The notes: generated by a model not told the origin, from the sequence alone. Shown: positions 27,237-35,801, counted from the first letter of the stretch. The stretch: 64,000 bases of DNA from Potamolinea sp. (GCA_042408245.1 JAYFMV010000019.1:3511-67510); one strand, 5' to 3'. Numbers and translations are program-made.

Positions 27237-28865
27237 TTAAAAAGGGCGATTATCACGCAGAATTTGCAGATTCTTACGGATGGTAACAGTATTGGGATGA
27301 TTTGTTCCTAATCTTCGTTGGGCAATCTCTAAAGCTTGCAGATACAAAGGTTCAGCTTCAGTGTAGCGTCCTTGAGATTTGTAGAGACCTGCCAAGTTGT
27401 TGAGACTGGTAGCGACAGCGGGATGGTCTTCTCCCAGAAGGCGTTTTGTCAACTCTAAAGCTTGCAGATACAAAGGTTCAGCTTCAGTGTAGCGTCCTTG
27501 AGAATTGTAGAGACCTGCCAAGTTGTTGAGACTGGTAGCGACAGCGGGATGGTCTTCTCCCAGAAGGCGTTTTGTCAACTCTAAAGCTTGCAGATACAAA
27601 GGTTCAGCTTCACTGTAGCGTCCTTGAGATTCGTAGAGTGCTGCCAAATTGTTGAGACTGGTAGCGACATTGGGATGGTCTTCTCCCAGAAGGCGTTTCC
27701 ACAACTCTAAAGCTTGCAGATACAAAGGTTCAGCTTCAGTGTAGCGTCCTTGAGATTTGTAGAGGTATGCCAAGTTGTTGAGACTGGAAGCGACATCGGG
27801 ATGGTCTTCTCCCAGAAGGCGTTTGGTCAACTCTAAAGCTTGCAGATACAAAGGTTCAGCTTCAGTGTAGCGTCCTTGAGATTTGTAGAGGTATGCCAAG
27901 TTGTTGAGACTGGAAGCGACATCGGGATGGTCTTCTCCCAGAAGGCGTTTGGTCAACTCTAAAGCTTGCAGATACAAAGGTTCAGCTTCAGTGTAGCGTC
28001 CTTGAGAATTGTAGAGACCTGCCAAGTTGTTGAGACTGGTAGCTAAATCCTCCTCTAAACCAAACTCTTTTTGTAAATCAATTGCTTTGCCAAGATACTG
28101 GATTGCTAGAATTTGTTCCTGCTGATAATCCTGCGATTCTCCCTGGTCTAATCTTTTTTTATAAATGCTTCCCATTCTGAAATAAAAATCCGCCAAACTA
28201 GGGTCTTTTTTCCCCCTTTGCTGTTCAATTTTTCTAATTAATTCCTGCAAGTCTTTTAGGGGTATCAACGAAGTGCCATCTTCATCTGTACCCAAGAATT
28301 TCTGTTCTTCTGGAGTCAAGCGTAAGTCAGTAAATTCTTTCCTTAAAACTGCACTTCTCTTTTTAGAAGCAAACCGAAAAACACCCTTGCGCCAACTCCA
28401 AAAATCCAGAGCTTTTTTACTCAAACTTGCCTGAATTTGATTCGTCATCCAGATCACAATTGGAAAAGGAAACTCTCGCATTCCTTCCCGCGTCCACTGT
28501 AAATAACCGAAAAAAAGATCTTGCTCTGAGCGTTTTTCACCAAGTTTCAAAAAGTAAAACTGCTCGATACCCGTCACCGTCAAAACCGCTTGTCCACCCT
28601 GACGCAGATACTCATCTTTTGCCACTAACTCAGCAATAGCCGCCCTCAGACTAGGTTCCCTGCGTGCTAATGTTACCCGATAGGGACGCATCTCTGGCTG
28701 CAATTCTGCCTCATATCGTTGAATTATCTGCTCACGGAAATCAAGCTGATCACATACTGCAATCAACAAGCTCAACTTTCCCTGACTTGCTTCAATTGAA
28801 ACCAGCAAATCATCATAACTATCTTCATTTTGATCTGTCGTATCTGGGAAAGATTGAGTGTCCAT
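27237..28865 (-). CDS. TPR (kinesin-light-chain type, TPR_10/12) repeat protein with uncharacterised 280-aa N-terminal domain
   Basis: Six near-identical 42-aa repeats LNNLAxLYxSQGRYTEAEPLYLQALELTKRLLGEDHP. The start ATG abuts the upstream ATPase stop (TAAATG). Confidence 0.8.
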   Translation of the reverse strand: MDTQSFPDTTDQNEDSYDDLLVSIEASQGKLSLLIAVCDQLDFREQIIQRYEAELQPEMRPYRVTLARREPSLRAAIAELVAKDEYLRQGGQAVLTVTGIEQFYFLKLGEKRSEQDLFFGYLQWTREGMREFPFPIVIWMTNQIQASLSKKALDFWSWRKGVFRFASKKRSAVLRKEFTDLRLTPEEQKFLGTDEDGTSLIPLKDLQELIRKIEQQRGKKDPSLADFYFRMGSIYKKRLDQGESQDYQQEQILAIQYLGKAIDLQKEFGLEEDLATSLNNLAGLYNSQGRYTEAEPLYLQALELTKRLLGEDHPDVASSLNNLAYLYKSQGRYTEAEPLYLQALELTKRLLGEDHPDVASSLNNLAYLYKSQGRYTEAEPLYLQALELWKRLLGEDHPNVATSLNNLAALYESQGRYSEAEPLYLQALELTKRLLGEDHPAVATSLNNLAGLYNSQGRYTEAEPLYLQALELTKRLLGEDHPAVATSLNNLAGLYKSQGRYTEAEPLYLQALEIAQRRLGTNHPNTVTIRKNLQILRDNRPF

Positions 28866-33800: not shown

Positions 33801-35801
33801 TTAGGAAAGGCGATCGTCACGCAAAATTTGCAGATTCTTACGGAAGATAACAGTATTAGGGTGATTTGTTCCTAATCTTCGTTCCGCAATCTCTAAAGCT
33901 TGCAGATACAAAGGTTCAGCTTCCGTGTAGCGTCCTTGAGATTCGTAGAGATCTGCCAAATTGTTGAGACTGAGTGCGAAACGGGGATGGTCTTCTCCCA
34001 GCAGGTGTTTTCTCAACTCTAAAGCTTGCAGAAACAAAGGTTCTGCTTGTTCATAGCGTCCTTGAGATTTGTAGAGACCTGCCAAATTGTTGAGACTTTG
34101 TGCGACATCGGGATGGTCTTCTCCCAGAAGGCGTTTTCTCAACTCTAAAGCTTGCAGATACAAAGGTTCAGCTTCCGTGTAGCGTCCTTGAGATTTGTAG
34201 AGATATGCCAAATTGTTGAGACTGAGTGCGAAATGGGGATGGTCTTCTCCCAGCAGGTGTTTTCTCAACTCTAAAGCTTGCAGATACAAAGGTTCAGCTT
34301 CAGTGTAGCGTCCTTGAGATTCGTAGAGTGATGCCAAATTGTTGAGACTGAGTGCGAAATAGGGATGGTCTTCTCCCAGAAGGCGTTTGCTCAACTCTAA
34401 AGCTTGCAGAAACAAAGGTTCAGCTTCCGTGTAGCGTCCTTGAGATTTGTAGAGATATGCCAAATTGTTGAGACTGTGTGCGACATCGGGATGGTCTTCT
34501 CCCAAGCGTGCTTTAGTTGATGACAAGCATTGCTTGCACCACGGTAAAGCCTCGTTGTAGTTTCCTTGACCTTCGTAGAATCCTGCCAAGCCAACAAAGG
34601 GACAGATTAAATCATCATCATTCAACCAATCTGTTTGAGTAGTTGCGGCTTCTGCTAGATGAGGAATAATTGGGGTAAAGGCGGCAATTTCTGACAGAAT
34701 GGGTGTCTCAGGAATGTCCTTTGCTACAGCTACCATCACCTGACAAAACCTCCGCTTCAAGTCATCTGCTTCTGCTGACTTTTCCCGTTTATCCTGAAAG
34801 AATTCTCGAATTAGTTCATGTAATTGGTAGGTGTCTTTCTCGGTGCGCTTAATTAGGCTGAATTTTAGCAAAGTTCGTCGGGCTTTTGGCAAGTTTTGAC
34901 CTAACCCCCCCAGCCCCCCTTCCCTGCGAGGGAAGGGGGGAGTTGGAGTGGAGGGAGTTGGAGTAGGAGTGGAGGGAGTCAGAGTCTTACTCCCCTCTCC
35001 TTGCAGGAGAGGGGCTGGGGGAGAGGTCAACACACTTTCCACCAACGACCAAGGAATGGGTGCAGAGGCAAACACAGAAAGCAGATATCCTAAAATTTGG
35101 GCATTTTCGTCCAATTCCTGCCAACTCAACTCAAAGGCAGCCGCAACACCCAGCCGCGCCGTCATTTCAGGATGAGTCTCATCCAAGGCTTCACATTTCA
35201 GACTCGCTTGCACCAAAAGTTGTTGAATTTCTACTAGGGATAAATCCTCTTCAATATCCAAATATCGCCCCACTAACTCCAATCCCAAGGGCAAATAACC
35301 TAACCATTTACAAAGTTTTTCAGCAACATTTAACTGGCTATTTACCCGTTCATCCCCAATATACGACCTCAACATATCCAGTGCTGCATCTGGAGTCAGC
35401 ACCTGCAAATCTAACCGTTTAATCGGCGAACTCAACTGTAACCGCGTCGTGATCAACACCTTAAAACGCGGATCTGTTGGTGGTAAAAAAGGCTTTACAT
35501 CCTCATATTTAGTCACATCATCCAGCACTACCAGAACATCTCCCGTCCGCCAATTTCGCCAGCAGTACGCTACCTGATTTGGCAATTCCAAACCATCAGG
35601 AATCTGTAACTTTAAATATGTTCTGGCAAAGTTGACAATTTGAGTCCCCACATCCGAACTTCGCGCATTTATCCAGCAAATTCCACCGATGTATTTTTGC
35701 TCTGGCAAAGTAGCACGAGCGTACTGCAGCGCCAATTCTGTCTTACCGACGCCACCCATCCCAGCGATCGCAGAAATGGCTACTGTCTGTGTTTCCTGCA
35801 A
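33801..35801 (-). CDS. NB-ARC (STAND) NTPase fused to kinesin-light-chain-type TPR repeats, NLR-like
   Basis: Walker A GMGGVGKTELA, Walker B VLVVLDDV, GLPL-like GYLPLGLELVG. C-terminal TPR units are about 90% identical at DNA level to those of 27237-28865. The frame continues upstream through a single TGA (see 35916-36299). Confidence 0.85.
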   Translation of the reverse strand: MQETQTVAISAIAGMGGVGKTELALQYARATLPEQKYIGGICWINARSSDVGTQIVNFARTYLKLQIPDGLELPNQVAYCWRNWRTGDVLVVLDDVTKYEDVKPFLPPTDPRFKVLITTRLQLSSPIKRLDLQVLTPDAALDMLRSYIGDERVNSQLNVAEKLCKWLGYLPLGLELVGRYLDIEEDLSLVEIQQLLVQASLKCEALDETHPEMTARLGVAAAFELSWQELDENAQILGYLLSVFASAPIPWSLVESVLTSPPAPLLQGEGSKTLTPSTPTPTPSTPTPPFPRREGGLGGLGQNLPKARRTLLKFSLIKRTEKDTYQLHELIREFFQDKREKSAEADDLKRRFCQVMVAVAKDIPETPILSEIAAFTPIIPHLAEAATTQTDWLNDDDLICPFVGLAGFYEGQGNYNEALPWCKQCLSSTKARLGEDHPDVAHSLNNLAYLYKSQGRYTEAEPLFLQALELSKRLLGEDHPYFALSLNNLASLYESQGRYTEAEPLYLQALELRKHLLGEDHPHFALSLNNLAYLYKSQGRYTEAEPLYLQALELRKRLLGEDHPDVAQSLNNLAGLYKSQGRYEQAEPLFLQALELRKHLLGEDHPRFALSLNNLADLYESQGRYTEAEPLYLQALEIAERRLGTNHPNTVIFRKNLQILRDDRLS

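What the first reader, a model, noticed from the sequence alone, without database searches (positions are those of the whole stretch)
27237..34500. Near-identical TPR-coding segments in direct orientation flank the MVP/ATPase core
The 3' ~0.8 kb of 27237-28865 and of 33801-35801 are about 90% identical at DNA level. Both are TPR arrays and share the LGTNHPNTV(T/I)(I/F)RKNLQILRD tail. Internally each is a tandem array of near-identical 126-bp units. Such direct repeats 6.5 kb apart can mediate deletion or duplication of the intervening MVP-ATPase segment, or gene conversion between sensors. They are also assembly-collapse hazards.
Basis: seen in the sequence. Interest (0 to 1): 0.5.

Follow-up and report, generated by a model that had tools for sequence, protein, structure and literature searches.

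The report
Shared TPR sensor repeats, two genes
Two neighbouring immune-receptor-like genes of a filamentous cyanobacterium end in almost the same string of 42-residue TPR repeats because the repeats are kept alike by recombination while a few ligand-facing residues vary. This is a known behaviour of such receptors, but one of the two genes also carries a conserved in-frame stop codon followed by an RNA hairpin, which I did not find described.

Summary
Window 27237-27935 and 33801-34499 are 89.7% identical in register over 699 nt. The block ends exactly at both stop codons and after five 126-nt units. Both are 42-residue (kinesin-light-chain-type) TPR arrays with high internal identity. One belongs to an ATPase-plus-TPR-protein gene pair, the other to an NB-ARC/TPR receptor. 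Differences sit in 8 of 42 codons (dN 0.61 against 0.009 elsewhere). The two arrays resemble each other more than either resembles its orthologues, and a three-way site test favours exchange between them (41 vs 17, p=0.002). Unit number varies among orthologues. This is the concerted, diversifying evolution already described for fungal and bacterial NLR repeats, so it is a new member of a known kind.

"MVP/ATPase core" is not a unit: the ATPase pairs with the TPR protein elsewhere without MVP. I saw no deletion between the arrays. The assembly risk is real inside array A (180-nt exact repeat) but small between arrays (57 nt).

Side finding: the NB-ARC gene continues in frame from an upstream Bell-domain ORF across one TGA. 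That TGA, usually TGA-C, and a covarying 5-bp hairpin 8 nt downstream recur in 16 of 17 related loci, including Nostoc PCC 7120.

The parts
27237..28865 (-). Gene A, 542 aa. It has a 268-aa N-terminal domain of unknown family, one degenerate TPR, six near-identical 42-residue TPR units (A1 28061-27936 to A6 27431-27306) and a C-terminal cap. Its start codon abuts the ATPase stop codon.
   Evidence: ORF and translation; unit register; Pfam TPR_12 E=7e-107; no Pfam hit for the N-terminal domain even at E<=10.
27237..27935 (-). Array A half of the shared block: cap plus units A6-A2, 699 nt.
   Evidence: 89.7% ungapped identity to 33801-34499, with sharp edges at both ends; blastn 90.5%.
33801..34499 (-). 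Array B half of the shared block: cap plus units B5-B1, 699 nt.
27702..28007 (.). Longest exact internal repeat of array A: 27702-27881 equals 27828-28007 (180 nt). The copy number of the A2/A3-type unit is therefore not secure in a short-read assembly.
   Evidence: Longest-common-substring computation.
28866..30152 (-). P-loop ATPase, 428 aa. It is the conserved upstream partner of gene A. Predicted fold is AAA+/STAND-like: nucleotide-binding domain, lid and winged helix.
   Evidence: Pfam AAA_16/KAP; 1408 homologues; followed directly by a TPR protein in L001, L002, L006/7, L009, L010; AF2 pLDDT 82 and Foldseek hits to Cdc6/ORC, RdrA and plant NLR at E about 1e-6 to 1e-7.
30666..33335 (-). 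Major vault protein homologue, 889 aa. It lies between the two arrays but is not a conserved partner of either neighbour.
   Evidence: Pfam Vault repeats and MVP_shoulder; 100% identical to a Potamolinea sp. MAG protein; other MVP contexts differ.
33801..35915 (-). Gene B, an NB-ARC/TPR receptor. The ORF is called from TTG 35801, but the conserved pre-P-loop linker (35915-35802) lies upstream of any start codon and in frame with the Bell ORF.
   Evidence: Pfam NB-ARC E=3.5e-13, 49.8 bits against cut-off 23.5; frame analysis; the linker is present in fused homologues; no ATG/GTG/TTG in the 38 codons after the TGA.
35916..36299 (-). Bell-like domain ORF, 127 aa. It has an MEPIS N-terminus, six predicted helices and a Q/N/G-rich tail, and it ends in TGA 35918-35916, in frame with gene B.
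   Evidence: family of 210 cluster representatives, mostly short (median 138 aa among the best 150); AF2 model; MEPIS motif and Bell features as described in bioRxiv 10.1101/2024.11.07.622273 and 10.1101/2020.01.06.895854.
35890..35907 (-). Conserved 5-bp hairpin with an 8-nt loop, starting 8 nt 3' of the in-frame UGA.
   Evidence: 15-locus alignment A4: 75/75 cells paired; 0/500 shuffles reach the observed percentage paired or covariation score; two pairs with compensatory double changes; RNAalifold predicts the same helix.
30224..30682 (.). 164-nt tandem repeat, 2.8 copies at 97-100% identity, made of several small hairpins. It lies between the MVP stop and the ATPase start. It is not part of the TPR repeat system.
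   Evidence: a single copy lies upstream of the ATPase in L010; Rfam CRISPR-DR28 matches are below threshold only.

Best explanation
The two segments are the ligand-sensing TPR arrays of two different STAND-type receptor modules that happen to be neighbours in a filamentous cyanobacterium (Potamolinea-like MAG). Module A is a split pair: an AAA+/STAND-like ATPase plus a protein with an unknown N-domain and TPRs. Module B is a Bell/NB-ARC/TPR receptor.

Both arrays are built from the 42-residue, kinesin-light-chain-type TPR with high internal identity. Unequal crossing-over and gene conversion within an array keep the units nearly identical, down to synonymous sites, and change their number. 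At least one exchange covering five units plus the C-terminal cap has also passed between the two arrays. Alternatively a third array elsewhere in the genome supplied both.

Variation is retained only at about 8 of 42 codons. These map to helix-A positions 2, 9 and 12 and the preceding loop, which is the concave ligand-binding face in canonical TPR numbering. Reshuffling therefore produces new binding surfaces.

Shown here: the repeat anatomy, the site-specific dN/dS contrast, the within-genome clustering, the mosaic site pattern, and the variation in unit number among orthologues. Inferred: that the arrays bind ligands, that the variable sites face the groove, and that the modules act in defence or cell death.
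For: - Anatomy and identity.
- Site pattern: 8 hypervariable codons have dN 0.61 and dS 0.36; the other 34 have dN 0.009 and dS 0.096. Of 163 nonsynonymous codon differences, 144 fall in those 8 codons.
- Arrays cluster by genome: winA-winB 0.87 against 0.82/0.74/0.71 for A orthologues and 0.84/0.81/0.81/0.80 for B orthologues.
- Synonymous divergence: A-B units 0.17-0.20, against ATPase 0.73-2.1, A N-domain 0.66-1.8 and MVP 0.22 between genomes.
- Three-way informative sites: 41 (A=B), 17 (B=L013), 29 (A=L013); binomial p=0.002.
- Each orthologue array has its own homogenised consensus. Unit counts are 5/6/7/8 for A and 3/5/6/7 for B.
- The unit-core 33-mer occurs 10 times here and twice in 185,579 genomes.
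- Closest solved structures are KLC1/2 TPR domains, the 42PR proteins 4Y6W/4Y6C and bacterial KLC-like 5O01.
- The same behaviour is described for fungal NLR TPRs and noted for bacterial ones (PMC4986451; bioRxiv 10.1101/2020.01.06.895854).
Against: - The comparisons rest on few codons (42-158), so dS has wide error.
- The hypervariable set was chosen after looking at the data.
- Every A unit differs from every B unit at codon 7 position 3 and at codon 8. Exchange between the arrays is therefore not very recent, or is rarer than exchange within an array.
- The 29 sites where A=L013 but not B show a complex mosaic. L013's own array may have been converted by paralogues I cannot see.
- Only 64 kb of this genome is available, so a third array could be the donor to both A and B.
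- A single array transplant followed by independent homogenisation fits nearly as well as repeated conversion.
- The concave-face placement of the variable residues comes from canonical TPR numbering and from published homology models, not from coordinates computed here.
- The sequence is a MAG contig, so unit counts in A may be wrong.
Confidence: 0.8

Rival explanations
1. A one-off domain transplant. One array (five units plus cap) was copied once onto the other gene, and there has been no further exchange between the two. Later similarity reflects only shared ancestry plus independent homogenisation within each array.
For: The shared block has razor-sharp edges at a unit boundary and at the stop codon. 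The terminal units correspond by position: A6 and B5 are 90% identical and share the ALEIA(Q/E)RRLG ending. Fixed array-specific differences at codons 7-8 occur in all units.
Against: The site pattern is a mosaic, with runs of A=B, A=L013 and B=L013 sites. A4 resembles B2 (92%) more than it resembles A6. Orthologue arrays all carry different consensus sequences, which argues for continuing turnover.
Confidence: 0.3
2. Similarity by constraint. Strong purifying selection on an optimal 42-residue consensus, plus codon bias, makes unrelated arrays look alike at DNA level without any recombination.
For: The protein consensus is widespread. Units of distant genomes share 63-83% DNA identity, and TPR dS to L001 (0.41) is lower than the flanking-gene dS (0.77).
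Against: Synonymous sites are shared: most codons are identical in all 11 units. Arrays in other genomes keep the same protein motif with different codons and a different consensus. The 33-mer is almost unique to this genome.
Confidence: 0.05
3. Assembly artefact. Reads from several TPR genes of the genome or community were merged, which would create two artificially similar arrays.
For: The window is 100% identical to a MAG contig. Array A has a 180-nt exact repeat. Other assemblies break in such arrays.
Against: A and B share no exact stretch longer than 57 nt. Both ORFs are intact and in register. Each array carries private fixed differences in every unit. An independent metagenome contig (L013) shows the same array-B tail joined to the same 3' flank and MVP.
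Confidence: 0.07

Closest known systems
Highly internally conserved 42-residue TPR arrays of fungal and bacterial NLR/STAND proteins (Dyrka et al. 2014, PMC4986451; Marold et al. 2015 '42PR', PDB 4Y6C/4Y6W; noted for cyanobacterial NLRs in bioRxiv 10.1101/2020.01.06.895854)
   Same: 42-residue period. 82-85% mean amino-acid identity between units. Variation confined to a few helix-A positions. Unit-number polymorphism among orthologues. Exchange within a gene and between paralogues. Attachment to an NB-ARC NTPase (gene B).
   Different: Here one of the two exchanging arrays sits on a protein without its own NTPase domain; it is partnered with a separate AAA+/STAND-like ATPase gene. I have no allele series or ligand.
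Kinesin light chain TPR domain (PDB 3NF1, 3ZFW, 7AI4, 3EDT)
   Same: Best sequence match among solved structures (E 1e-50 to 1e-69). Same LNNLA...Y...G.Y..A motif. KLC binds cargo peptides in the concave groove (established knowledge).
   Different: KLC repeats are diverged from one another and are not attached to a STAND NTPase.
Bell-domain/BASS amyloid-signalling gene pairs next to NLRs (bioRxiv 10.1101/2020.01.06.895854; Bab/Agp in E. coli, bioRxiv 10.1101/2024.11.07.622273)
   Same: The ORF upstream of gene B has the MEPIS N-terminus, a helical domain of about 100 aa and a Q/N/G-rich tail of about 25 residues. It lies directly 5' of an NB-ARC/TPR gene.
   Different: The receptor has no start codon and no copy of the tail motif of its own. 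Instead the two ORFs share one frame, separated by a conserved UGA followed by a hairpin.
Stop-codon read-through signals (phage Qbeta A1 protein; viral UGA/UAG read-through with a 3' structure about 8 nt downstream; UGA-C as the weakest E. coli terminator, Poole et al. 1995; all from my own knowledge)
   Same: UGA followed by C in 15 of 16 loci. A conserved structure begins 8 nt downstream. A homologue has Trp at the site.
   Different: No product has been observed. The hairpin is only 5 bp. No case in a bacterial immune receptor turned up in the searches I ran.

Membership tests
Highly internally conserved 42-residue TPR array of an NLR/STAND protein | TPR of the 42-residue TPR_10/TPR_12 (KLC-like) type in tandem | tested here: met
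   Period 126 nt; Pfam TPR_10/TPR_12 E between 1e-74 and 1e-107; KLC and 42PR are the top PDB matches.
Highly internally conserved 42-residue TPR array of an NLR/STAND protein | Units about 80-90% identical to one another over at least 100 aa | tested here: met
   Mean amino-acid identity 85% within A and 82% within B; DNA identity 91-98% for A2-A5 and 88-96% for B1-B4.
Highly internally conserved 42-residue TPR array of an NLR/STAND protein | Variation concentrated at a few positions, with an excess of nonsynonymous change there | tested here: met
   8 codons: dN 0.61, dS 0.36. Other 34 codons: dN 0.009, dS 0.096. The site set was chosen post hoc.
Highly internally conserved 42-residue TPR array of an NLR/STAND protein | Variable positions lie on the concave, ligand-binding face | tested here: inconclusive
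   Unit positions 8, 15 and 18 correspond to canonical TPR positions 2, 9 and 12 by motif alignment. Dyrka 2014 mapped the equivalent sites to the concave face. No coordinates were computed here.
Highly internally conserved 42-residue TPR array of an NLR/STAND protein | Repeat-number polymorphism and concerted evolution among relatives | tested here: met
   A orthologues have 5, 6, 7 or 8 units and B orthologues 3, 5, 6 or 7, each with its own consensus.
Highly internally conserved 42-residue TPR array of an NLR/STAND protein | Array fused to a NOD (NB-ARC/NACHT) NTPase | tested here: met
   Met for gene B (NB-ARC 49.8 bits against cut-off 23.5). Not met for gene A, whose NTPase is a separate upstream gene with an AAA+/STAND-like predicted fold.
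Bell/BASS-NLR amyloid-signalling gene pair | Bell domain: MEPIS-type hydrophobic N-terminal helix with an acidic residue at position 2 or 3, and about 100 aa of helices | tested here: met
Bell/BASS-NLR amyloid-signalling gene pair | Matching amyloid motif at the effector C-terminus and at the NLR N-terminus | tested here: not met
   The tail motif (..IG...QG.........NF) occurs only before the UGA. The NLR part begins with the linker LQPPEAEQV... and has no start codon for 38 codons.
Programmed stop-codon read-through | Conserved in-frame stop with intact, conserved coding sequence on both sides | tested here: met
   16 of 17 Bell-NLR junctions have a single TGA in the same frame, at NB-ARC identity down to 28%.
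Programmed stop-codon read-through | Leaky context and a stimulatory 3' structure | tested here: met
   TGA-C in 15 of 16 loci. Hairpin 8 nt downstream: 75/75 cells paired, compensatory changes at two pairs, 0/500 shuffles reach the observed percentage paired or covariation score.
Programmed stop-codon read-through | A read-through protein is actually made | not testable with these tools
   Needs mass spectrometry, a reporter assay or ribosome profiling. The only indirect hint is Trp at that codon in homologue P0253.
   ATPase-A pairs lie at other loci without MVP in L001, L002, L006/7, L009 and L010. MVP has other neighbours in L014 and L015. No PADLOC hit for MVP.
CRISPR array (for the 164-nt repeats) | Short repeats separated by unique spacers; Rfam direct-repeat match above threshold | tested here: not met
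   The whole 164-nt unit is repeated, 'spacers' included. CRISPR-DR28 scores 32.9 bits against a threshold of 35.

The most novel reading that the evidence does not exclude
Gene B is not two genes. It is one reading frame, Bell domain + amyloid-like tail - UGA - linker - NB-ARC - TPR, in which a conserved leaky UGA-C and a hairpin 8 nt downstream allow occasional read-through, probably as Trp.

The cell would then make a large amount of the short Bell/tail effector and a small amount of full-length receptor carrying the same Bell/tail module. When the TPR array binds its ligand, receptor oligomerisation would nucleate the tail. The tail would then recruit and activate the free effector to kill the cell.

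This would replace the duplicated motif of classical Bell/NLR gene pairs with a recoding signal. The layout occurs across Nostocales, Coleofasciculaceae-type genomes and Acaryochloris, and includes pCC7120gamma of the model strain Nostoc sp. PCC 7120.
Probability: 0.45. Interest if true: 0.75.

Novelty: new member of a known kind. Interest (0 to 1): 0.35.

Why it matters
For the finding as given: it is a clear bacterial example, measured at synonymous sites, of repeat reshuffling in receptor arrays, a process worked out mainly in fungi. It shows that units can be shared between two architecturally different sensor modules, so one pool of recognition cassettes may serve two signalling arms. It also marks these loci as places where short-read assemblies cannot be trusted for unit number.

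For the side finding: if the conserved UGA and hairpin act as a read-through signal, this would be a rare case of programmed recoding in a bacterial chromosomal or plasmid gene. It would also be a new way to set the receptor-to-effector ratio in an NLR-type cell-death system. It can be tested directly in Nostoc PCC 7120.

Tried and rejected
- MVP-ATPase-TPR as one conserved system: rejected by gene contexts and by the absence of a PADLOC hit for MVP.
- Deletion between the arrays in relatives. L013 lost ATPase-A, but through deletions that left the last ~70 nt of the ATPase gene and the first 29 codons of A, fused to an antitoxin 3' end. L017 and L018 lack the whole segment, but the flanks give no direction.
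- Campbell-type integration through the arrays. I looked for homology between the 3' flanks of A orthologues and the 3' flank of window B and found none.
- Selenocysteine at the TGA: no Rfam SECIS match and no tRNA genes in the window. A homologue has Trp there. This is not fully excluded.
- Genome-wide UGA reassignment: rejected, because TGA ends 4 of 29 long ORFs in the window.
- Pseudogene or sequencing error at the TGA: rejected by 16 loci, ten of them finished plasmids.
- CRISPR for the 164-nt repeat: rejected.
- Kaur et al. 2020 (PMC7159879) was checked for vault or TPR-repeat links: none.
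Full report
**Source and gene layout.** The MVP protein of the window is 100% identical to one from a 'Potamolinea sp.' MAG contig of 89 kb. The window is therefore a metagenome-assembled piece of a filamentous cyanobacterium (43.5% G+C, kaiABC at 22936-25964). On the minus strand the order is as follows:
- a 127-aa ORF (35916-36299);
- an NB-ARC/TPR gene, B (called 33801-35801);
- a major vault protein homologue (30666-33335);
- a 164-nt tandem repeat (30224-30682);
- a P-loop ATPase (28866-30152);
- immediately abutting it, a 542-aa TPR protein, A (27237-28865).

**The observation.** It is correct. blastn aligns 27241-27940 with 33806-34504 at 90.5%. In register and without gaps, 27237-27935 and 33801-34499 are 89.7% identical over 699 nt. 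Identity falls to 53% one unit further upstream and to background (21%) just 3' of the two stop codons. The block is five 126-nt units plus the 69-nt cap including the stop codon, so about 0.7 kb rather than 0.8 kb. A has six near-identical units and B has five, each preceded by a degenerate unit. Within-array DNA identity reaches 98% (A2/A3). Between arrays it is 83-94% for internal units.

**What the repeats are.** They are 42-residue TPRs of the TPR_10/TPR_12 type. The nearest solved structures are the kinesin light chain TPR domains, the '42PR' proteins 4Y6C/4Y6W and a bacterial KLC-like protein.

Among the eight internal units, 144 of 163 nonsynonymous codon differences fall in eight codons (5, 6, 8, 15, 18, 24, 37, 39). 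There dN is 0.61 and dS 0.36. In the other 34 codons dN is 0.009 and dS 0.096. Most codons are letter-for-letter identical in all 11 units.

By motif alignment, positions 8, 15 and 18 are canonical TPR positions 2, 9 and 12 on helix A, the groove-lining face. This step is inference. It agrees with the homology modelling of the same repeat type in fungal NLRs (PMC4986451).

**Concerted evolution and exchange between the two genes.**
- Orthologues of A (L001, L006, L002) and of B (L013, L016, L017, L018) each carry an array homogenised to a different consensus, and with a different unit number: 5/6/7/8 for A and 3/5/6/7 for B.
- The window's two arrays are closer to each other (mean unit identity 0.87) than A is to any A orthologue (0.82, 0.74, 0.71) or B to any B orthologue (0.84, 0.81, 0.81, 0.80).
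- Synonymous divergence between A and B internal units is 0.17-0.20. For the ATPase it is 0.73-2.1 against the same relatives, and for the A N-domain 0.66-1.8.
- Against L013, a contig with 94% DNA identity in MVP (dS 0.22) and an orthologous 3' flank, the last 477 nt of the arrays give 41 sites where A=B, 17 where B=L013 and 29 where A=L013 (binomial 41 vs 17, p=0.002).
- A 33-nt unit core occurs ten times in the window and only twice in 185,579 species genomes.

Together these results exclude similarity by constraint. They support recombinational exchange, within arrays above all and between A and B at least once.

Caveats:
- Every A unit differs from every B unit at codons 7-8.
- The number of sites is small.
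- The donor could be a third array outside the 64 kb.
- L013's array may itself have been converted.

**What the flanked segment is.** The ATPase has more than 1400 homologues in filamentous cyanobacteria. In five distinct lineages examined it is followed directly by a TPR protein with the same N-terminal domain. These pairs lie at unrelated loci and never next to MVP. In Okeania a different large protein follows it. Its predicted fold (pLDDT 82) matches Cdc6/ORC, RdrA and plant NLR nucleotide-binding modules. ATPase plus A therefore looks like a split STAND-type sensor; this is inferred. MVP homologues in cyanobacteria are known (bioRxiv 10.1101/872010) and have other neighbours in L014 and L015. 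'MVP/ATPase core' is thus a coincidence of position.

**Rearrangement and assembly.** In L013 the ATPase-A module is gone. What remains is the last ~70 nt of the ATPase gene and the first 29 codons of A, fused to the 3' part of an antitoxin gene. This proves that the module was at this site in the common ancestor, and that it was lost without involving the arrays. In L017, B is followed by a toxin-antitoxin pair and then the 98-aa gene that follows A in the window. L018 has neither, and in both loci everything between the two arrays is absent. I could not decide between insertion and array-mediated deletion.

Array A contains a 180-nt exact repeat, B at most 65 nt, and A against B at most 57 nt. 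Five contigs from other assemblies stop inside such arrays. Unit number in A is therefore uncertain, while an A/B chimera is unlikely.

**Comparison with what is known.** High internal conservation of 42-residue TPRs in NLR-type proteins is described for fungi and noted for cyanobacterial and actinobacterial NLRs. So are reshuffling within and between paralogues, hypervariable groove positions and length polymorphism (PMC4986451; bioRxiv 10.1101/2020.01.06.895854). The finding is a new member of that kind. Its one unusual trait is that one partner in the exchange is a TPR protein with a separate NTPase gene.

**Side finding, outside the given coordinates.**
- The 127-aa ORF and gene B are in the same frame, separated by a single TGA (35918-35916). 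The next 38 codons encode the conserved pre-P-loop linker (PPQNLPYSGVPKFVGRE...), which fused homologues also have, and contain no ATG, GTG or TTG.
- The ORF starts MEPISLTAGAIATL, is predicted to be helical, and ends in a Q/N/G-rich tail. It belongs to a family of 210 cluster representatives. Of the best 150, 145 are at most 200 aa (median 138 aa). These are the features of the Bell cell-death domain with an amyloid-signalling tail.
- The same layout is present in 16 of 17 Bell-NLR junctions that I read. Six came from loci found by NB-ARC similarity (window, L016, L017, L018, L023, L024). Ten came from finished plasmids of Nostoc, Acaryochloris and a Nostocales strain, including pCC7120gamma. 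NB-ARC identity goes down to 28%.
- Fifteen of the junctions read TGA-C. One reads TGA-GTG, where GTG is the annotated start of the receptor.
- The one exception without an in-frame TGA (L037) is a classical two-frame pair ending in TAA.
- In RefSeq records the receptor ORFs are given ATT, ATA or ATC starts.
- Eight nucleotides after the UGA lies a 5-bp hairpin (window 35907-35890). In a 15-locus alignment it is paired in 75 of 75 cells, and has CG/UA and CG/GC/UG/UA alternatives at two pairs. No shuffle out of 500 reaches the observed percentage paired or covariation score, and slid controls pair 12-47% of cells. RNAalifold predicts it independently.
- One homologue has Trp at the stop position. 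TGA is an ordinary stop elsewhere in the window. The Bell/NLR papers I searched do not mention a stop codon or read-through.
- I read this as a probable recoding (read-through) signal, with termination-reinitiation as the main alternative. Nothing here shows that a long product is made.

Noticed in passing
window 35890-35918 (minus strand); also L016 7836, L017 7884, L018 5884, L023 993, L024 2998, and L027-L036: In-frame TGA between a Bell-like ORF and the NB-ARC/TPR ORF. It reads TGA-C in 15 of 16 loci, is followed after 8 nt by a covarying 5-bp hairpin, and there is no canonical start codon for 29-56 codons in 15 of the 16 loci (in L032 a GTG follows the TGA directly). It is conserved from Coleofasciculaceae-type genomes to Nostoc PCC 7120 and Acaryochloris plasmids.
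   Followed up: yes
window 30224-30682: 164-nt tandem repeat, 2.8 copies at 97-100% identity, built of several small palindromes. It lies between the MVP stop and the ATPase start, and the MVP stop codon lies inside the last copy. A single copy sits upstream of the ATPase in L010. Rfam CRISPR-DR28 matches are sub-threshold only.
   Followed up: partly
L013 3519-3826: Chimeric ORF in the closest relative. The last ~70 nt of the ATPase gene and the first 29 codons of gene A are fused to the 3' part of an Unstab_antitox-type antitoxin gene, followed by ParE. This is a deletion scar of the ATPase-A module.
   Followed up: yes
protein P0253 (Nostoc sp. CALU 1950, partial, 897 aa): One predicted protein joins an A-type N-terminal domain plus TPR to a Bell domain, a Trp at the 'stop' position, then NB-ARC and TPR. 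A-type and B-type genes are therefore adjacent or fused in another genome too.
   Followed up: no
window 34934-34985: Pro/Thr-rich low-complexity insert (PSTPTPTPSTPTPP...) with 21-nt tandem repeats inside the helical region of gene B. It is shared with L016 and absent from L017 and L018.
   Followed up: no
window 33423-33510 and 60341-60428: 88-nt dispersed repeat, 93% identical, one copy in the B-MVP intergenic region. The only Rfam matches are chance-level miRNA hits.
   Followed up: no
window 26418-26466; L017 9761-9809; weaker copy at window about 27190-27215: A short element (GGCGATAATTA[AC]AATTGAG...) recurs just 3' of small genes and of the NLR in different loci. It may be a cassette boundary, a terminator or a promoter.
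   Followed up: no
window 26472-26768 (98-aa ORF): A 98-aa ORF of unknown family is 93.6% identical at DNA level to a gene downstream of the B orthologue in L017, while the NB-ARC regions are only about 85% identical. The small gene appears to travel with the receptor.
   Followed up: partly
window about 52935-53038: A run of 7-nt tandem repeats, seen as staggered BLAST hits from L013. It looks like the heptamer repeats typical of filamentous cyanobacteria.
   Followed up: no
window 19155-25964: kaiA-kaiB-kaiC and a CBS/hybrid histidine kinase lie next to the variable island, and are syntenic with L013 at 94.6% DNA identity.
   Followed up: no
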